DNA from: a virus
Taxonomy: Duplodnaviria > Heunggongvirae > Uroviricota > Caudoviricetes
DNA length: 42,461 nt
Virus record (IMG/VR): IMGVR_UViG_2703719365_000009
Strand: one strand, 5' to 3'
This document shows positions 1 to 30,022 of the stretch, in pieces. The position numbers and the translations under genes were made by a program. The first letter of the stretch is position 1. Each line of letters begins with the position of its first letter. Below the pieces are notes generated by a model that made no database searches, was not told where the DNA came from, and was given only the letters and a program-made list of their open reading frames with translations.

Positions 1-1349
1 CCATCGATGCCGCCAGCCGCACCCTGACGCTGGACCGTGAGGTGACACTGCCGGAGACCGGTGCCGCCACGGTGAACCTGATTAACGGCAGCGGTAAGCC
101 GGTGAGTGTGGACATCACCGCACACCCCGCGCCGGACCGGATACAGGTCAGTACCCTGCCTGATGGTGTGGAGACATACGGGGTGTGGGGACTCTCCCTG
201 CCGTCACTGCGCCGTCGCCTGTTCCGCTGTGTCTCCGTCCGGGAAAACACGGACGGCACCTTTGCCATCACGGCGGTGCAGCACGTACCGGAAAAAGAAG
301 CCATCGTGGATAACGGTGCCCGCTTTGAGCCGCAGTCAGGTTCCCTGAACAGCGTCATCCCACCGGCAGTACAGCACCTGACGGTGGAGGTGAGTGCAGC
401 TGACGGCCAGTATCTGGCGCAGGCTAAATGGGACACGCCGCGGGTGGTGAAGGGCGTGCGCTTCAGTCTGCGCCTGACCAGTGGTAAGGGAACGGATGCC
501 AGACTGGTGACCACCGCCATCACCGCAGACACGGAGCACCGTTTCAGCGGCCTGCCGCTCGGGGAATACACCCTGACGGTGCGGGCGATAAACAGCTATG
601 GCCAGCAGGGTGAACCTGCCACCACCACCTTCCGGATTGCCGCACCGGCAGCACCGTCGCGGATTGAGCTGACGCCGGGCTATTTTCAGATAACCGCCAC
701 GCCGCATCTTGCCGTTTATGACCCGACGGTACAGTTTGAGTTCTGGTTCTCGGAAAAGCGGATTGCGGATATCAGGCAGGTTGAAACCGCAGCCCGCTAT
801 CTTGGCTCGGCGCTGTACTGGATAGCTGCCAGTATCAATATCAAACCGGGCCATGATTATTATTTTTATATCCGCAGTGTGAATACTGTTGGCAAATCGG
901 CATTCGTGGAGGCTGTCGGTCGGGCGAGCGATGATGCGGAAGGTTACCTGGATTTTTTCAAAGGAGAAATCGGGAAAACACATCTGGCCCAGGAGCTGTG
1001 GACGCAGATTGATAACGGTCAGCTTGCGCCGGACCTGGCTGAAATCAGGACGTCCATTACGAATGTCAGCAATGAAATCACGCAGACCGTCAATAAAAAA
1101 CTGGAAAATCAGAGTGCGGCAATCCAGCAGATACAGAAAGTTCAGGTTGATACAAATAATAACCTGAACAGCATGTGGGCCGTGAAACTGCAGCAGATGC
1201 AGGACGGACGCCTTTATATTGCGGGTATCGGTGCCGGTATTGAGAATACGCCAGCAGGAATGCAGAGTCAGGTGCTGCTGGCGGCAGACAGGATTGCGAT
1301 GATTAATCCTGCGAATGGCAACACAAAGCCGATGTTTGTAACCAGGTGA
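1..1349 (+). pseudogene. J: Host specificity / tail tip protein J (lambda J-like), upstream portion; frame enters from window start and is cut by the Mu-like insertion
   Basis: Frame open from nt 3 (5-prime partial). Translation ends ...[22 protein letters not shown] then TR-stop at the insertion end; the conserved continuation [15 protein letters not shown] reappears in frame at 40716. Confidence 0.85.
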
Positions 1350-19661: not shown

Positions 19662-19782
19662 CGGTCAGTGGCGGGGGTCGAACCCGCATACATGATCCAC
19701 CCGGAGGCAGGCACCGACTTTACCAGTTAAGCGTACACTGACCGCCTGCTTATTTTATATTCATATTTTATACGGAGGCAAT

Positions 19783-23874: not shown

Positions 23875-24120
23875 ATGAAAACCATCTTTATCAAACCCGC
23901 GCCGGGACGCCTGATTCGTGATCCCGACACAATGCGCCCGCTGGCACAGGAGGGGGAGGAAAAGCCCTTTACGCCGTTCTGGTGTCGGCGTCTTGATGAC
24001 GGCGATGTCATTCAGGCTGAAAAAGCCGCTGAAGAGGCTCCGGCTGTATCTGCGGATGCAACGACTGCGACAGAAAAACCGGTCGCCCAACCGGCATCCG
24101 ATAAGGAGAAACCGCAATGA
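23875..24120 (+). CDS. Small head-tail region protein (Mu gp38 position)
   Basis: 81 aa; starts immediately after upstream stop. Confidence 0.55.
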   Translation: MKTIFIKPAPGRLIRDPDTMRPLAQEGEEKPFTPFWCRRLDDGDVIQAEKAAEEAPAVSADATTATEKPVAQPASDKEKPQ

Positions 24121-25619
24121 TTAATTTTGACGGGATCGGTAATGACCGCCGTATACCGCTGATTGAGGTTGAGTTTAATAACTCCATGGCTGTCACCGGC
24201 ACTCCGGCACAGCGTCAGTGTGTGCTGCTGTTTGGTCAGGCGAGAATGAAAGAGAATGCCGTGGACGGTGCCGGTGTTCTGGATGTTCCGGTCAGGATCA
24301 CCCGTGCGTCTCAGGCAACAGAACTCTGGGGGCGCGGCTCCATGATTGCCCTGATGGTGGCGGAATTTATCGCCATCAATCCTGATGCTGAACTGTATGC
24401 CATTGCTCAGGGGAACGGCACCGGACAGGCAACGGCTGCGGCCATGAATCTGACCGGAACGGTCACCCGTGACGGGATTGTTTATGCCTGCGTGGGGGGG
24501 CGGCGTTATACACTTCCGGCACCAAAAGGTAAGAAAGGCAAAGAACTGACCGACGAGCTGGCCGCGCTGATCAATGCCGATCCTGACGCGCCCTTCACGG
24601 CCTCCTCTGGTGCAGGAAGTGGTGATAATGGCGCAGGTCTGAAAGGGTCTCTGGGGATCACCGCCCGCTTTACCGGTGAATGCTCCGTTCATGATGTGCG
24701 CCTGAACTATTACGACGGGGAAGCAACCCCGGAAGGAATACAGGTCGCTATAGCCTATCCGAAACAAAAAGCGGCTAACCCGGATATCACCCGAAGCGTG
24801 GCGGGTATGGGCGATCGCCAGTACAACTATGTCGTCATGCCCTATAAGGATGATGCAAACCTGAAAATCATCAGTGATGAGCTTCTGAAACGCTGGGGAC
24901 CGGCCAAAATGTCTGACGGCGTGCTGTGGCTGGCACATACCGGCACGTTTGGTGAGGTGCAGGCATTCGGGGCAAAACGCAATGATTTTCTGGCGACCTG
25001 CACATCCATTCCCAAAGCCCCTGAACCGGATTACCTCTGGGCAGCGGCGGTCTGTGCCACCTGTGCACCCTCTCTGGGAGCAGATCCTGCGCGTCCGCTT
25101 CAGACGCTGGCGCTTCCGTCACGCATGGCCCCGGCTCCGGCCGATCGTCTGACGCGTGAAGAGCGTAACAGTCTGCTGTGGGGAGGGATTGCCACGGTCA
25201 GTGTGGCTGCCGGTGATGTGGTTCAGATCGAACGTCAGGTGACCATGTATCGCCAGAACGTGTACGGCGAAAGTGATCCCAGCTATCTGGATGTGGAAAC
25301 CATCTACACCCTCTCCTGGCTGCGTTATTCCCTGCGTACTTTTATCACACAACGTTTTCCGCGCCATAAACTGGCTGATGACGGGACGCCCGTTCGTGCC
25401 GGTCAGAATATCGTGACGCCGGAGATCATGAAGCTTCAGTTAATTTCGCTGGGTGAAGAGTGGGTGGAGCTCGGGCTGGTCGAAAATCTGGACACCTTTA
25501 AAAAGAATCTGCTTGTGGAGCGTAATGCGTCAGATCGAAACCGTCTTGACGTGTTATGCACGCCGGATCTGGTTAACCAGTTCCGCTTCCTGGCAGCACA
25601 GATCCGTTTCATTTTGTGA
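24117..25619 (+). CDS. Tail sheath protein (Mu L-like)
   Basis: 500 aa; RBS AAGGAGA; size and position. Confidence 0.85.
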   Translation: MINFDGIGNDRRIPLIEVEFNNSMAVTGTPAQRQCVLLFGQARMKENAVDGAGVLDVPVRITRASQATELWGRGSMIALMVAEFIAINPDAELYAIAQGNGTGQATAAAMNLTGTVTRDGIVYACVGGRRYTLPAPKGKKGKELTDELAALINADPDAPFTASSGAGSGDNGAGLKGSLGITARFTGECSVHDVRLNYYDGEATPEGIQVAIAYPKQKAANPDITRSVAGMGDRQYNYVVMPYKDDANLKIISDELLKRWGPAKMSDGVLWLAHTGTFGEVQAFGAKRNDFLATCTSIPKAPEPDYLWAAAVCATCAPSLGADPARPLQTLALPSRMAPAPADRLTREERNSLLWGGIATVSVAAGDVVQIERQVTMYRQNVYGESDPSYLDVETIYTLSWLRYSLRTFITQRFPRHKLADDGTPVRAGQNIVTPEIMKLQLISLGEEWVELGLVENLDTFKKNLLVERNASDRNRLDVLCTPDLVNQFRFLAAQIRFIL

Positions 25620-25627
25620 GGTAAGGC

Positions 25628-25993
25628 ATGAGCGGAAAACAGTATCAGGGTACGGCCACTATCCGTGTGAACGGTCAGGAATACGAGACGCTTGAGGGGG
25701 CTACATTTTCTCCGTCTGGTTTTGAACGTGAAGTGGTGAAAGGCGCGAAAGTCTATGGTTACCGCCAGAAACCACGTGAAGCGACGCTGGACTGCAAATT
25801 TCCGGCAGGCGGAGAAGGTTCACCAGCCGCCGATGAAATCAACAACTGGACTGCGGTCACTATCGAGTTTGTGGCGGATACCGGCGAAGTCCACATGATG
25901 ACGAAGGCCTGGAGCAGTGAACCGGCCTCGCTTGACGGTGGCGGGGAGATCTCCGTGAAGTTCGCCAGCGCCTCCAGTACCCGTGTTCAGTGA
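25628..25993 (+). CDS. Tail tube protein (Mu M-like)
   Basis: 121 aa immediately after sheath. Confidence 0.75.
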   Translation: MSGKQYQGTATIRVNGQEYETLEGATFSPSGFEREVVKGAKVYGYRQKPREATLDCKFPAGGEGSPAADEINNWTAVTIEFVADTGEVHMMTKAWSSEPASLDGGGEISVKFASASSTRVQ

Positions 25994-26007: not shown

Positions 26008-26484
26008 ATGACCACACGTAAGAAAAAAACGGCAGTTTCCGAGGCAGCCGTGATGGAGGCAATCCGGGAAGCACTTGAGGGGGCTGATCCACGCACTGCC
26101 GGGCTGACAGAGCAACTGGCAAAGGGATATGTGGATCTGCTTGATGGTCTGCCGTTTGGTGAAACCCGTGAATATCGTGTCACGTTCCGGGAACTGACAG
26201 CGAAAGACAGTATTGACGCAGAAGCAGAAGCCGAGCGCGTGGTGGAGACAAACAATGGCCCGATGCTGATAGCGTCTCCGTCGTTACGCGGTGTTGCACT
26301 GCTGCGCCGTCAGATTGCCGCAGTGGGAGACATTGAAGGTCCGTTGTCACCCCGTCAGATTGGACAGTTAAGCGAGCGCGATCTCTCCCGCCTGATGGCA
26401 GCGGTCAGCCTGCTGGATACCGCGCTTGCCGGAAAGCTGGCAGCTGACCGGGGGCGATCAGGCGCAGTGTCGGGATCAGATTGA
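26008..26484 (+). CDS. Tail assembly chaperone (between tube and tape measure); alternative GTG start at 25990
   Basis: ORF with RBS AGGA before ATG 26008; acidic protein in the canonical chaperone position. Confidence 0.65.
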   Translation: MTTRKKKTAVSEAAVMEAIREALEGADPRTAGLTEQLAKGYVDLLDGLPFGETREYRVTFRELTAKDSIDAEAEAERVVETNNGPMLIASPSLRGVALLRRQIAAVGDIEGPLSPRQIGQLSERDLSRLMAAVSLLDTALAGKLAADRGRSGAVSGSD

Positions 26485-26608
26485 AGAAGCGGCAATTATC
26501 CTGGGGATGGTGACAAAAAGCGGTCCGGAATGGGCGCTTAACCTCCCCCTGTCGCAACTTTACCGGCACTGCCGACAGACAGAAAAAATCATCAGAACGA
26601 AGCAGTAA
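26426..26608 (+). CDS. Overlapping +1-frame ORF; candidate frameshift-extended C-terminus of tail assembly chaperone
   Basis: Open frame overlaps chaperone 3-prime end and ends 2 nt before tape measure start; slip site not identified. Confidence 0.35.
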   Translation: MPESWQLTGGDQAQCRDQIEEAAIILGMVTKSGPEWALNLPLSQLYRHCRQTEKIIRTKQ

Positions 26609-26610
26609 GT

Positions 26611-28686
26611 ATGGCCCGAAATCTCAGAGCATCTCTGATAGTTGATTTGCTCGGCAATATCTCAGCCAAATCCCGCCAGTGGTCACAGGAGCTGGGGGCA
26701 TTCTCACGCTCCGGCCAGGCGGGGCTGGGTGGCCTGGGAAATGCTGCCCGCCGTGCCGGGCAGGAAACAGATGTACTCGGAAGCAGGATGCAGCGCACGC
26801 TGGCCGGGGTGCGGGGCAGTATCCGCCATGTCACTTCTGATTTTGACCGTCTTCAGGGCAGTATTACCGGCACCATCGGGCGGATCAGCAATCTTTACGG
26901 AATGCTGGCCGGTGGTGCTGCTGTATATGGCTTTAACCGGGGATTTATTCGCCCGGCAGCGGAGATGGAAACCTATATGATTCGCCTGAACTCCCTTTAC
27001 AAAGGGGATCGGGCGAAAACGGATGATGTCCGCAGGTGGGCAATACAGAATGCGAAGGAAACCACCTGGGGGCTGGCTGGCGTCATGCAGGAATATACGT
27101 CCAGTCTGGGCTTTGGTATGAGTGACAGGGAGGCCCGAAATTTTGTCACCATGCTTCAGGATCAGGGGGCCGTGGGCGGCTGGTCACTGTCCGATGCACA
27201 GGGGGCATCCCTGCAACTGAAACAGATGTATGCAAGAGGCAGTATTCAGGCGGCGGATGCAAATATTCTTGCCACCTACGGCATTAATGCCTACCGCGTG
27301 CTGGCTGATCGTCTGGGTGTGGACCAGAAAGTGGTCAGAAAACTTGGTGAAAAAGGGCTGCTTGGGCCGGACAGTATTCGCCTGTTATTTCAGACGCTGG
27401 CGGAACAGGCCAGGGGAGCACAAAAGGACGCAATGAATTCCTGGAGTGGCCTGACGGCCATGATGGGTGACGTCTGGGACCAGTTTGCCCGGGATGTGAT
27501 GGACAGTGGGCCATTTGAAAAACTGAAGGGTAATCTCAGGGGATTTCTTTCATGGGTTGACAGTGCCAAATCTGATGGCAGTTACCATTCCCTGGCGGAA
27601 AGCACGGCATCAGCCATGAACCAGGGCTTTGAGTATGCCCGTGATGCAGTGACAGGGTTTTATCAGGCGATCAGAAAGGTACGCGACACGCTTCAGGCTC
27701 TGCGGGATGCGGGCTATGGTGATGCGCTGGATCGCATTGGTCAGGGGGCACAGACTGCCGCGAAATACCTGCTGTACATGTATCTCGCCACCCGTGCCCT
27801 GAAAATGGCGCGGGCTGTCGGAACGGGGATTATACGTCCGGGTGCTGCATTGCTGGGATACGGATTATCAGCGGCGGCCTTCCTGACTTCACCTTTCCGG
27901 CGCTCTCCTCCGGCCGGAACACCACCAGGCACATCTCAGGGACGAGGGCAACGTTTTATAAACTTTCTTACCGGGGTAAATCCGGCAGCCGTTCAGCCAG
28001 TACTTGTAACAAACTGGCCCACAGGAGGACTGTCCGGCACCGGCGCGACCGATACATCCTCAGGCGGACGTCAGGGGCGGGGTCGCAGGAAACGCGGACC
28101 GGGGCGCGGAAGACCGGTCACGCCTCCCCTGCCACCGTCCCCAGTGCCACCGTCTCCCTCTTCTGGTGGGGCAGGGTTCTGGGGGCGCATGATGGGGCGC
28201 GCCGGTGGGTTACTTTCGTCTGTCGGTAGCCGCATGGGGCTGGGGCGTTTCTCCGGCTTTTTCCGCAGTGCCGGTGGACTGGCCGGCCGGCTGGGTGGAG
28301 GTGCCCTGTGGGCTGGCGCGATGGCAGCCCCGGTTCTGCTGGATGGCAGCGCCAGTGCCACAGACAAGGGAGAAGCGGTCGGCTCTCTTGCAGGCAGTAT
28401 TGCCGGTGGTGCGCTGGGGGCGGCAGCCGGACCTGTGGGGATTGCCATTGGTTCTACGGTGGGCAGCTATCTCGGTAACTATCTGGGGGGATGGCTGACT
28501 GAAGCCTGGCAGAAATTACGGGGCAGTGATGATGAAAGCAGTGGACAGGCGGTACAAAAAGCCTCTGCCCGTGTGGAGCTGGTTGCCCCGGAAGGGTGGC
28601 AGGCTCGCAGTATTGATATTGATGACACGTCCGGTCACGGACTGGATGTGAATGTCTGGAACGGAGGGAATTATGGCCTCTGGTGA
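26611..28686 (+). CDS. Tail tape measure protein
   Basis: 691 aa; Gly/Pro-rich low-complexity C-terminal part; position after chaperone. Confidence 0.85.
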   Translation: MARNLRASLIVDLLGNISAKSRQWSQELGAFSRSGQAGLGGLGNAARRAGQETDVLGSRMQRTLAGVRGSIRHVTSDFDRLQGSITGTIGRISNLYGMLAGGAAVYGFNRGFIRPAAEMETYMIRLNSLYKGDRAKTDDVRRWAIQNAKETTWGLAGVMQEYTSSLGFGMSDREARNFVTMLQDQGAVGGWSLSDAQGASLQLKQMYARGSIQAADANILATYGINAYRVLADRLGVDQKVVRKLGEKGLLGPDSIRLLFQTLAEQARGAQKDAMNSWSGLTAMMGDVWDQFARDVMDSGPFEKLKGNLRGFLSWVDSAKSDGSYHSLAESTASAMNQGFEYARDAVTGFYQAIRKVRDTLQALRDAGYGDALDRIGQGAQTAAKYLLYMYLATRALKMARAVGTGIIRPGAALLGYGLSAAAFLTSPFRRSPPAGTPPGTSQGRGQRFINFLTGVNPAAVQPVLVTNWPTGGLSGTGATDTSSGGRQGRGRRKRGPGRGRPVTPPLPPSPVPPSPSSGGAGFWGRMMGRAGGLLSSVGSRMGLGRFSGFFRSAGGLAGRLGGGALWAGAMAAPVLLDGSASATDKGEAVGSLAGSIAGGALGAAAGPVGIAIGSTVGSYLGNYLGGWLTEAWQKLRGSDDESSGQAVQKASARVELVAPEGWQARSIDIDDTSGHGLDVNVWNGGNYGLW

Positions 28687-30022
28687 CGGTCGTGGTGCGT
28701 TCCGTGGTGTGCCGTTCCTCGTCTGGCGTGAGCAGCGCGAACGTGGCGGGCGAAACATTGTCCGTCGGGAATATCCGTTACGGGAAACCGGTGGTGCAGA
28801 CGATCTGGGACCTAAACTGGCTGAATTTACGTTCAGTGTACTTGTGATGGGGGATGATGTTCAGACACAGCGAAATCGTCTGCGTGATGCCCTTCGTGCA
28901 CCCGGTGCCGGGGAGCTGCTTCACCCGGATTACGGCACGTTAAATGTGCTGATAAACAGCTTTGAAAGTCGTTATAACGCTGCTGAACAGGGCGTGGTTG
29001 AGTTCACCATTAATGTCACGCCGGTAAGTGATGATACCGCACCTGCTGTCACACAGGACACGGCCGCCATTCTGGAGCAGAAGAGTACCACCGCGCTCGG
29101 GAAGGTTTTTGAAACCCTGGAAGCGGGCTGGACGGTGATTTCTGACGGAATGCACGATGTCCAGGCAATGACCGAAACCATCAGCGATAAGGTGTCCGCC
29201 CTGGAAAATGCCGTTTCCGGCATGGGGATTGTACAGGATATCAGTGCCTTTACTGCCACGTTCACGGCGCTGAAAGGGAATGCCACGGCATTACTGACAG
29301 CACCTTCCCGCATGGCCTCATCTTTTGCGGGGCTTTTCAGTGCCCTGATCACCCTGCCATCGCTGCCGTCACTGTCTTCAGGAGGCCTGCATACCCGGCC
29401 CGGTGGCAGTATCGGCCGGACGACATCCGCCGTCTCTCAGGGAATGCCGCAACTGTACAGGACATTATCTTCCCTGCGTTACGTGCTGGATGAGCAGGAT
29501 AATCCGCAGACTCTCATCGGTCTGACACCGGCAGCACAAAAGAATATTCGTCTGATACGGGCGGTAATGCAGAGTGCTGCCGTGGTGGCCCAGGCACAGA
29601 CCGTGGGAAAACTGCTGGATCAGGTTCTCAGTCAGGAAACCCTGCCGGACAGTGACGCAGCCCACCGTACCTGGCCTGTCTGGCTGGAAAGTTCAGTTGA
29701 TCTTCAGCGCATTAACCGTGACTTAAGCGAAGCGCTCGAACGGCAGGTGATGACACTGTCCGGGCAGGGGTATACCGCCACGGCGCTGACGCTTCGTGAT
29801 GCCAGACTGGCACTGACAGAGGATCTGAATACGCGGGGAGTTCAGCTACCCGGTGCAACAGTAGTGACTGTACGTACCACCGAGCCTGCACTGGTGACCC
29901 TGTACCGTGCCACCGGGAACAGTACCGGCTGGCAACGTTTTGTGCGCCGTAACGGTATTGTTGATCCGCTGTTCATTCCCGGAGGCCATTCAGTGGAGGT
30001 GATTAGTGAGCAGCAGGGTTGA
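28673..30022 (+). CDS. Mu N-like tail protein (DNA circularisation protein)
   Basis: ATG 28673 with RBS GGAGGG (alternative 28652); position after tape measure. Confidence 0.75.
   Translation: MASGDGRGAFRGVPFLVWREQRERGGRNIVRREYPLRETGGADDLGPKLAEFTFSVLVMGDDVQTQRNRLRDALRAPGAGELLHPDYGTLNVLINSFESRYNAAEQGVVEFTINVTPVSDDTAPAVTQDTAAILEQKSTTALGKVFETLEAGWTVISDGMHDVQAMTETISDKVSALENAVSGMGIVQDISAFTATFTALKGNATALLTAPSRMASSFAGLFSALITLPSLPSLSSGGLHTRPGGSIGRTTSAVSQGMPQLYRTLSSLRYVLDEQDNPQTLIGLTPAAQKNIRLIRAVMQSAAVVAQAQTVGKLLDQVLSQETLPDSDAAHRTWPVWLESSVDLQRINRDLSEALERQVMTLSGQGYTATALTLRDARLALTEDLNTRGVQLPGATVVTVRTTEPALVTLYRATGNSTGWQRFVRRNGIVDPLFIPGGHSVEVISEQQG

What the first reader, a model, noticed from the sequence alone, without database searches (positions are those of the whole stretch)
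26008..26608. Candidate programmed frameshift in the tail assembly chaperone
A 183-nt ORF in the +1 frame overlaps the last about 60 nt of the chaperone gene and ends 2 nt before the tape measure start. This matches the conserved chaperone/extended-chaperone pair found between tube and tape measure genes. The shift would be +1 or -2 here; I could not pinpoint the slip site, though a CCGGGGGCG run lies in the overlap.
Basis: partly seen in the sequence, partly recalled or inferred. Interest (0 to 1): 0.35.

Follow-up and report, generated by a model that had tools for sequence, protein, structure and literature searches.

The report
Mu-type −2 frameshift in tail chaperone

Summary
A 183-nt ORF (26426-26608) in the +1/−2 frame overlaps the last 59 nt of the chaperone gene (26008-26484) and ends 2 nt before the tape measure ATG (26611).

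The chaperone is a homologue of phage Mu gp41 (Pfam Gp41_Mu, 7e-32). In Mu, a −2 frameshift at this site is recorded as experimentally verified.

- **Predicted product:** join(26008..26457, 26456..26608), 200 aa. It aligns without a gap across the junction to Mu's deposited frameshift product (49% identity, 3e-56).
- **Conservation:** in 17 representative lineages of the 74 related loci (about 33-100% protein identity), G GGG CGA is the only invariant nucleotide block.
- **Extension:** always in the +1/−2 frame, 47-51 codons long, under purifying selection (dN/dS 0.07-0.32), with no conserved start codon of its own.
- **RNA stimulator:** no conserved downstream structure was found.

RefSeq does not annotate the fused product in this prophage. 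The verdict is a new member of a known kind, of low interest.

The parts
25628..25993 (+). Tail tube gene (121 aa), the upstream neighbour that fixes the synteny
   Evidence: Pfam PF10618 Tail_tube, 3.3e-31.
26008..26484 (+). Tail assembly chaperone, zero-frame product of 158 aa (Mu gp41 homologue)
   Evidence: Pfam PF23746 Gp41_Mu, 7e-32, and PF10109 Phage_TAC_7, 1.1e-5. PHROG 508, tail assembly chaperone, 1.2e-46. RefSeq PGAP calls the same CDS 'phage tail assembly protein'.
26450..26457 (+). Slip site GG GGG CGA. The zero-frame codons are CGG 26449-51, GGG 26452-54 (P site) and CGA 26455-57 (A site).
   Evidence: Identical octamer and register to phage Mu, and the site described in PMC3458567. 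G GGG CGA is the only invariant block in 17 representative lineages. It is the only copy in the window.
26456..26608 (+). Post-shift coding region in the −2 (= +1) frame: 50 codons plus TAA (DQAQCRDQIEEAAIILGMVTKSGPEWALNLPLSQLYRHCRQTEKIIRTKQ*)
   Evidence: Translation. Homologous to the Mu extension. PHROG 12783, 4e-39. dN/dS 0.07-0.32 in this frame. 29 distinct conserved peptides across the loci.
26008..26608 (+). Predicted frameshift fusion product, join(26008..26457, 26456..26608), 200 aa
   Evidence: It aligns without a gap through the junction to the Mu fusion (49% identity, 3e-56). The same join rule applied to Mu reproduces GenBank UIW09302.1 exactly.
26426..26608 (+). Its TTG 'start' is not a real initiation site.
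   Evidence: There is no Shine-Dalgarno motif upstream and no conserved start codon across the loci.
26611..28686 (+). Tape measure protein gene (691 aa), the presumed client of the chaperone pair
   Evidence: Pfam PF20155 TMP_3, 1.9e-18.

Best explanation
This is the Mu-type tail assembly chaperone pair of a Mu-like transposable prophage of E. coli.

**Zero-frame product.** Most ribosomes translate 26008-26484 and release the 158-aa chaperone, a gp41 homologue.

**The shift (inferred by homology to Mu).** A minority of ribosomes slip back two nucleotides on GG GGG CGA (26450-26457). At that point tRNA-Gly is on GGG in the P site and tRNA-Arg (anticodon ICG) is on CGA in the A site. After the slip, tRNA-Gly re-pairs perfectly with GGG. 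tRNA-Arg sits on GGC, where 2 of 3 positions pair and the poor I:A wobble is replaced by I:C. Translation then continues from GAT at 26458 in the new frame for 50 codons, to the TAA at 26606-26608, just before the tape measure start.

**Fused product.** This gives a 200-aa protein with the junction ...LAADRGR-DQAQCR... .

**Signal.** The octamer itself appears to be the whole signal. No downstream RNA structure or upstream Shine-Dalgarno-like stimulator is conserved.

**Function (inferred from lambda G/GT).** Both products bind the tape measure protein. The rarer extended form uses its extra C-terminal domain to recruit tube subunits. The fixed ratio set by the frameshift efficiency is needed for correct tail assembly, and neither protein stays in the virion.

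**Shown here:** the anatomy, the homology, the nucleotide-level conservation of the slip site, and the coding constraint on the extension.

**Inferred:** the actual shift, its direction and junction residue, its efficiency, and the role in assembly.
For: - **Family and synteny.** Gp41_Mu at 7e-32, placed between tube and tape measure in a Mu-type contractile tail module.
- **Slip site.** Mu has cGG GGG CGA in the same register. The literature describes tandem −2 slippage on GG GGG CGA (PMC3458567; PMC5009743; PMC3622925).
- **Junction rule.** My join rule reproduces the deposited Mu fusion UIW09302.1 exactly. The window fusion aligns to it without a gap through the junction.
- **Loci surveyed.** 74 related loci were examined. 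All 71 with two frames have N[G/A]G GGG CGA in the zero frame and a +1/−2 extension of 47-51 codons that ends at or just over the tape measure start.
- **Invariant block.** In 17 lineages from Enterobacteria to Vibrio, Shewanella, Pasteurella and Alteromonadaceae, the only invariant nucleotides are G GGG CGA. The G before them is present in 15 of 17.
- **Codon-choice control.** Other invariant Gly and Arg columns of the same protein use 3-5 synonymous codons, while the slip-site Gly and Arg are always GGG and CGA. CGA makes up only 4% of Arg codons in the window's tail genes.
- **Coding constraint on the extension.** dN/dS is 0.07-0.32, and variable sites by codon position are 23/20/35.
- **No independent initiation.** There is no conserved start codon or Shine-Dalgarno motif for the extension, and one Mu-type locus has no ATG, GTG or TTG at all.
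- **Host.** The sequence is 100% identical to E. coli chromosomes, so Mu's tRNA context applies.
Against: - No protein-level evidence exists for this prophage, and frameshifting cannot be demonstrated from sequence.
- The direction (−2 versus +1) and the junction residue are not fixed by sequence. The two public Mu entries disagree: GenBank UIW09302.1 has ...RGR-EW..., while UniProt P0DJY4 has ...RGG-EW....
- One clade related to the window (Salmonella, Citrobacter, Serratia) has AAG GGG CGA. This gives only imperfect P-site re-pairing after a −2 slip, so the requirement for five Gs is not absolute.
- ORF length and a single occurrence of the octamer are not significant on their own.
- The assembly role is extrapolated from lambda, which has a non-contractile tail.
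Confidence: 0.9

Rival explanations
1. The same two products are made by a different shift at the same place. One option is a +1 shift: P-site tRNA-Gly slips from GGG to GGC while the slowly decoded CGA codon waits in the A site, giving ...DRG-DQAQCR, 199 aa. The other is a −2 slip of the P-site tRNA alone with an empty A site, giving ...DRGG-DQAQCR, 200 aa.
For: - Both routes reach the same frame.
- CGA is a rare codon here, 4% of Arg codons, which fits a 'hungry A-site' model.
- The AAG GGG CGA clade lacks perfect −2 re-pairing.
- UniProt P0DJY4 models the Mu junction as RGG, a Gly rather than an Arg.
Against: - The Mu record and the reviews call the event a −2 shift, and a tandem one.
- The codon before GGG always ends in G, and in 15 of 17 lineages in GG. 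Arg at that position is only ever CGG or AGG. A +1 slip would not need this.
- CGA is kept in hosts as different as Vibrio, Pasteurella and E. coli. That argues for a specific role of tRNA-Arg(ICG), not simply any rare codon.
Confidence: 0.07
2. The 60-aa ORF is a separate small gene translated from its own start codon. This is how phage D108 annotates gene 41.5 and how several E. coli records list a 'hypothetical protein'. No frameshift would be involved.
For: - D108 annotates 41.5 as its own CDS.
- The 60-aa ORF is deposited as a hypothetical protein on 360 contigs.
- PHROG 12783 collects such stand-alone calls.
Against: - No start codon is conserved in position, and none has a conserved Shine-Dalgarno motif. 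In Mu-type loci the +1 frame opens only 5 codons before the shift point.
- One Mu-type locus has no ATG, GTG or TTG in the whole ORF.
- By my own reading of the locus coordinates, the D108 call begins at a CTG codon.
- Peptide conservation begins immediately at the slip site.
- The slip octamer is conserved at the nucleotide level.
Confidence: 0.02
3. Transcriptional slippage of RNA polymerase on the G5 run deletes one G or adds two Gs. This would produce a subpopulation of mRNAs in which the two ORFs are in frame.
For: A homopolymer lies at the right place. Genomic or assembly variants with G4 do exist and encode in-frame fusions (L007/L049, L008, P0112, P0118), so the run is prone to indels at some level.
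Against: From my own knowledge, known bacterial transcriptional slippage sites are A or T runs of about 7-9 or more, and a G5 run is too short. This model does not explain the invariance of the following CGA. The Mu event is described as ribosomal.
Confidence: 0.01

Closest known systems
Phage Mu gp41 / FS-gp41 (Mu_41 / Mu_56) tail assembly chaperone pair, −2 programmed ribosomal frameshift (Xu, Hendrix & Duda 2004, PMID 15469818)
   Same: - The same Pfam family (Gp41_Mu).
- The same position between tube and tape measure.
- The identical slip octamer GG GGG CGA in the identical codon register.
- The same target frame.
- The same post-shift length of 50 codons.
- A homologous extension peptide (…SGPEWAL.LPLS…RHC…), and 49% identity over the fused proteins with no gap at the junction.
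   Different: - The window protein has a longer, basic N-terminus (158 aa against 144 aa).
- The zero-frame tail after the slip site is 8 residues rather than 6.
- The extension stops 2 nt before the tape measure ATG rather than 14 nt.
- The fusion is not annotated in RefSeq for this prophage and has not been tested experimentally.
Lambda G / GT tail assembly chaperones (−1 frameshift; Levin 1993; Xu 2013, 2014, as summarised in PMC5009743)
   Same: The logic matches: two proteins share an N-terminus, are encoded just upstream of the tape measure gene, and are made at a fixed low ratio by recoding. This is the basis for the inferred function.
   Different: Lambda uses a −1 shift, on a G GGA AAG heptamer by my own recollection, in a non-contractile tail. 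No sequence similarity to lambda G/GT was detected here. In the window the −1 frame closes 29 nt after the chaperone stop.
P2 E / E+E' tail chaperones (Pfam PF10109 Phage_TAC_7)
   Same: P2 is a contractile-tail phage with the same gene position. The window chaperone just passes the PF10109 threshold (25.8 bits against a cut-off of 25).
   Different: By my own knowledge, P2 uses a −1 shift on a T-rich heptamer. The slip site and the target frame both differ.

Membership tests
Mu-type gp41/FS-gp41 chaperone pair with −2 frameshift | The chaperone is homologous to Mu gp41. | tested here: met
   PF23746 Gp41_Mu, 7e-32 and 110 bits against a cut-off of 27. tblastn to Mu, 49% identity, 2e-26.
Mu-type gp41/FS-gp41 chaperone pair with −2 frameshift | The gene lies between the tail tube and tape measure genes of a Mu-like contractile tail module. 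| tested here: met
   The order is sheath, tube, chaperone, tape measure, DNA circularisation protein, gp44-like hub. The related prophage is annotated in the same way.
Mu-type gp41/FS-gp41 chaperone pair with −2 frameshift | [quoted passage not shown] | tested here: met
   Present at 26450-26457 in the same register as Mu L001 1859-1866. Invariant across lineages.
Mu-type gp41/FS-gp41 chaperone pair with −2 frameshift | An extension ORF in the −2/+1 frame that is homologous to the Mu extension and ends next to the tape measure start. | tested here: met
   50 post-shift codons in both. The BLASTP alignment runs through the junction. PHROG 12783, 4e-39. dN/dS 0.07-0.32.
Mu-type gp41/FS-gp41 chaperone pair with −2 frameshift | The fused protein is actually made, with a −2 junction, and is needed for tail assembly. 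| not testable with these tools
   This needs proteomics or a reporter assay and genetics. Only the Mu record's note 'verified' is available.
Lambda-type G/GT −1 frameshift | A −1 slippery heptamer X XXY YYZ with the downstream ORF in the −1 frame. | tested here: not met
   The downstream ORF is in the +1/−2 frame. The −1 frame is open for only 29 nt beyond the chaperone stop.
Lambda-type G/GT −1 frameshift | Two products that share an N-terminus, encoded directly upstream of the tape measure gene. | tested here: met
Frameshift stimulated by a downstream RNA structure (stem-loop or pseudoknot) | A stable, conserved structure a few nucleotides 3' of the slip site. | tested here: not met
   Window fold z = +0.24 and Mu z = −1.27. 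RNAalifold gives −5.8 kcal/mol with a covariation term of +0.12. No Rfam match.
Transcriptional slippage site | A long homopolymer run, typically 7-9 or more A or T. | tested here: not met
   The run is only G5. The length criterion comes from my own knowledge.

The most novel reading that the evidence does not exclude
The bare octamer may be a self-sufficient −2 signal with no RNA stimulator. The family may also tolerate or switch mechanism: the AAG GGG CGA clade (Salmonella, Citrobacter, Serratia) cannot re-pair perfectly after a −2 slip and might use a +1 or a P-site-only slip. If so, closely related prophages, possibly including this one, would differ in the junction residue and in efficiency. 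That would make the family a natural series for studying what decides −2 versus +1 slippage in bacteria.
Probability: 0.1. Interest if true: 0.4.

Novelty: new member of a known kind. Interest (0 to 1): 0.15.

Why it matters
Natural −2 ribosomal frameshifting is rare. The reviews read here list only phage Mu, arteriviruses and one Trichomonas virus.

- **Scientific value.** The Mu signal turns out to be the only invariant nucleotide block across Mu-like myophages from several bacterial orders. It is also present in 228 of 5,426 complete E. coli genomes. This confirms that the signal is a strongly selected, portable element.
- **Annotation value.** RefSeq leaves the 124-nt stretch between the chaperone stop and the tape measure start unannotated. 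Other records list the extension as a stand-alone 'hypothetical protein', and PHROG 12783 carries it as 'unknown function'. All of these should be a single join CDS with ribosomal slippage.

No new biology is implied for this window.

Tried and rejected
- **Locus search with one protein.** The first scan of genome contigs with the single protein found no confirmed relative. Repeating it with an alignment gave 7 loci, and IMG/VR gave 58.
- **Downstream RNA stimulator.** Single-sequence folds were not better than shuffles. The alignment fold showed no covariation. Rfam found nothing in the region or in the whole window. Rejected.
- **Upstream Shine-Dalgarno-like stimulator.** My own inspection of the 48 nt upstream in 17 lineages found nothing conserved and no AGGAGG-like motif.
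- **Independent initiation of the 60-aa ORF.** Rejected: no conserved start codon or Shine-Dalgarno motif.
- **ORF length and octamer count as evidence.** Neither is significant alone.
- **NCBIfam.** No model matches the fusion or the extension.
- **PDB sequence search.** No relative with a solved structure.
- **AlphaFold2 on the fusion without an alignment.** Mean pLDDT was 51, and only residues 110-200 were moderately confident, as helices. This is too poor for a fold search, so none was run.
- **Collinearity with the 100%-matching E. coli record.** I assumed the whole window was collinear with it, and this was wrong. Only the centre matches, and the flanks differ.

Full report
**1. The observation**

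- The chaperone ORF runs from ATG 26008 to TGA 26482-26484 and encodes 158 aa. An AGGA motif lies 8 nt upstream of the ATG.
- A 60-aa, 183-nt ORF at 26426-26608 lies in the +1 (= −2) frame. It overlaps the chaperone by 59 nt.
- Its TAA ends 2 nt before the tape measure ATG at 26611.
- Pfam identifies the neighbouring genes as sheath (24117-25619), tube (25628-25993), tape measure (26611-28686), DNA circularisation protein and a gp44-like baseplate hub. This is a Mu-type contractile tail module.

The open frame is not remarkable on its own. 4 of 99 stop-free runs in the +1 frame of the six tail genes reach 70 codons or more. The octamer GGGGGCGA occurs once in the window against 2.25 expected by chance. 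The case therefore rests on comparison with related sequences.

**2. What it is**

The chaperone matches Pfam PF23746 'Gp41_Mu' at 7e-32, and just passes PF10109, the family of P2 E, Mu 41 and related proteins. tblastn finds Mu, D108, SfMu and more distant Mu-like myophages of Klebsiella, Pasteurella, Shewanella, Vibrio and Alteromonadaceae.

GenBank AF083977 (Mu) annotates two CDSs from the same start. Mu_41 is the chaperone.

The Mu sequence reads ...GAA CGG GGG CGA GTG... and the window reads ...GAC CGG GGG CGA TCA.... The octamer is the same and sits in the same codon register.

Lin et al. 2012 (PMC3458567) describe the Mu event as tandem −2 slippage on GG GGG CGA. In their account the A-site tRNA-Arg (anticodon ICG) makes a better post-slip contact in the −2 frame than in the −1 frame. 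Atkins et al. 2016 (PMC5009743) and Parent et al. 2013 (PMC3622925) list Mu among the very few natural −2 cases.

**3. The predicted product**

Applying the rule 'read through CGA, step back two nucleotides' gives join(26008..26457, 26456..26608). That is 150 + 50 = 200 aa, with the junction ...LAADRGR|DQAQCRDQIEE....

The same rule applied to Mu gives a 188-aa protein that is an exact match to GenBank UIW09302.1. The window fusion and the Mu fusion align at 49% identity (E = 3e-56), with no gap across the junction and 50 post-shift codons in both.

The extension also matches PHROG 12783 at 4e-39. That family is labelled 'unknown function' and evidently collects stand-alone calls of this ORF.

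**4. Comparative evidence**

I assembled 74 related loci:
- 7 from GTDB species genomes;
- 58 from IMG/VR;
- Mu, D108 and six distant phages;
- one E. coli chromosomal copy 100% identical to the window.

Three results follow.

*Architecture.* Seventy-one loci have the two-frame arrangement. Their zero-frame motif is N[G/A]G GGG CGA, and a +1/−2 extension of 47-51 codons ends at, or a few codons into, the tape measure gene.

*Slip-site invariance.* In 17 representative lineages spanning about 33-100% protein identity, the only invariant nucleotides in a 90-nt stretch around the site are G GGG CGA (plus one isolated downstream column). The preceding G is present in 15 of 17, and the flanks vary freely.

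*Codon-choice control.* Other invariant Gly and Arg columns of the same protein use 3-5 different synonymous codons. The slip-site Gly and Arg are always GGG and CGA, although CGA makes up only 4% of Arg codons in the window's tail genes. Selection here acts on the nucleotides, not only on the protein.

The extension is itself a coding sequence under constraint in its own frame:
- there are 29 distinct but clearly related peptides, with the core LPLSxLxRHC;
- pairwise dN/dS is 0.07-0.32;
- variable sites at codon positions 1, 2 and 3 number 23, 20 and 35.

It has no translation start of its own. Candidate ATG, GTG or TTG codons are not conserved in position, almost none has a Shine-Dalgarno core, and one Mu-type locus has none at all. 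The stand-alone gene 41.5 of D108 begins at a CTG codon by my reading of the locus coordinates.

**5. How it most likely works**

*Shown here:* the anatomy, the homology, the nucleotide-level conservation and the coding constraint.

*Inferred by homology to Mu, in the same host species:* a minority of ribosomes slip two nucleotides 5' when tRNA-Gly is on GGG (26452-54) in the P site and tRNA-Arg(ICG) is on CGA (26455-57) in the A site.
- tRNA-Gly re-pairs with GGG at 26450-52.
- tRNA-Arg sits on GGC at 26453-55.
- Decoding resumes at GAT (26458).

I found no stimulatory element.
- The 103 nt downstream fold no better than shuffles (z = +0.24 in the window and −1.27 in Mu).
- An 11-lineage alignment gives −5.8 kcal/mol with no covariation support.
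- Rfam is silent.
- My inspection of the upstream sequence in 17 lineages found no conserved Shine-Dalgarno-like motif.

The octamer therefore seems to be the whole signal.

The function is inferred from lambda G/GT as summarised in PMC5009743. Both forms coat the tape measure protein. The rare extended form recruits tube subunits, and neither ends up in the virion.

**6. Rivals**

- **A +1 slip, or a −2 slip of the P-site tRNA alone.** Sequence cannot exclude either. The two public Mu products even differ at the junction: GenBank has RGR-EW and UniProt P0DJY4 has RGG-EW. Conservation of the GG before GGG, and of CGA specifically across very different hosts, favours tandem −2.
- **Independent initiation.** Rejected.
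- **Transcriptional slippage on G5.** Unlikely, and it does not explain the invariant CGA.

**7. Comparison with what is known, and novelty**

All the sequence-level defining features of the Mu gp41/FS-gp41 pair are met. Only the production of the protein is untestable here.

The feature differs from lambda G/GT and P2 E/E+E' in the direction of the shift and in the slip site. It is a new member of a known kind.

The practical point concerns annotation. RefSeq PGAP annotates only the 158-aa protein and leaves the gap before the tape measure gene empty. The locus is present in 228 of 5,426 complete E. coli genomes.

**8. Side observations**

- The window is a Mu-like transposable prophage at 1337-40715, with a 5-bp target duplication, inserted in the J gene of a lambdoid prophage.
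- A related clade carries AAG GGG CGA at the slip site.
- Several assemblies carry G4, which fuses the two frames.

**Verdict**

Interest is low, because the mechanism and the family are already established.

Noticed in passing
window 1332-1336, 1337-40715, 40716-40720: The window is a complete Mu-like transposable prophage of about 39.4 kb, starting TGTAACC. It is flanked by a 5-bp direct duplication, ATGTT. It is inserted in the gpJ tail-tip gene of a lambdoid prophage. The uninterrupted site is contiguous in E. coli O157 strains such as NZ_CP022050.2 at 4809210-4812244. Two Stx-converting phage records likewise note an 'inserted Bacteriophage Mu-like phage'.
   Followed up: partly
L004, L032-L036, L039, L045 (slip site at about 1640-1670 in each locus): A Salmonella/Citrobacter/Serratia clade, about 67-80% identical to the window chaperone, has AAG GGG CGA in place of CGG GGG CGA. 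It has only four Gs, so P-site re-pairing after a −2 slip would carry a first-position mismatch. The extension is still in the +1/−2 frame. Whether these loci shift by −2 or by +1, and how efficiently, is unknown.
   Followed up: partly
L007 and L049 (1546-1553), L008 (1546-1553); proteins P0112, P0118: Some assemblies have CGGGGCGA, with four Gs, so the chaperone and extension are fused in one frame (...RGEWLQCR...). The cases are Kluyvera YDC799, Erwinia tracheiphila ICMP 5845 and two Logan contigs of Mu-type phages. Other E. tracheiphila assemblies encode the normal 151-aa protein (P0104). L007 has a second shift at another G run. These are probably homopolymer assembly errors, but they could be real mutants that make only the fused form.
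   Followed up: partly
L001 1859-1866 (phage Mu); proteins P0111, P0116: The two public versions of the Mu frameshift product disagree at the junction residue. GenBank UIW09302.1 has ...QERGREWL..., with Arg, as expected for tandem slippage. UniProt P0DJY4 has ...QERGGEWL..., with Gly, as expected for a slip of the P-site tRNA only.
   Followed up: no
window 26485-26610; L002 2386-2511: RefSeq PGAP leaves the stretch between the chaperone stop and the tape measure start unannotated in this prophage. D108 and many E. coli records list the extension as a stand-alone 'hypothetical protein'; the exact 60-aa ORF is on 360 contigs. PHROG 12783 files it under 'unknown function'. This is a systematic annotation gap for a known recoding event.
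   Followed up: yes
window about 19663-19742, minus strand (= L075 22720-22799): PGAP annotates a 'tRNA-OTHER' between the virion morphogenesis and head morphogenesis genes of the closely related prophage. ARAGORN finds no tRNA or tmRNA anywhere in the window, and Rfam finds no family at gathering threshold.
   Followed up: partly
window 28652-28686 and 30006-30022: Short gene overlaps occur along the tail module in the mechanical ORF calls. The tape measure and DNA circularisation genes overlap by 35 nt, and the DNA circularisation and baseplate hub genes by 17 nt. PGAP in the related prophage picks a later start for the circularisation gene (1350 nt against 1371 nt). This looks like ordinary translational coupling.
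   Followed up: no
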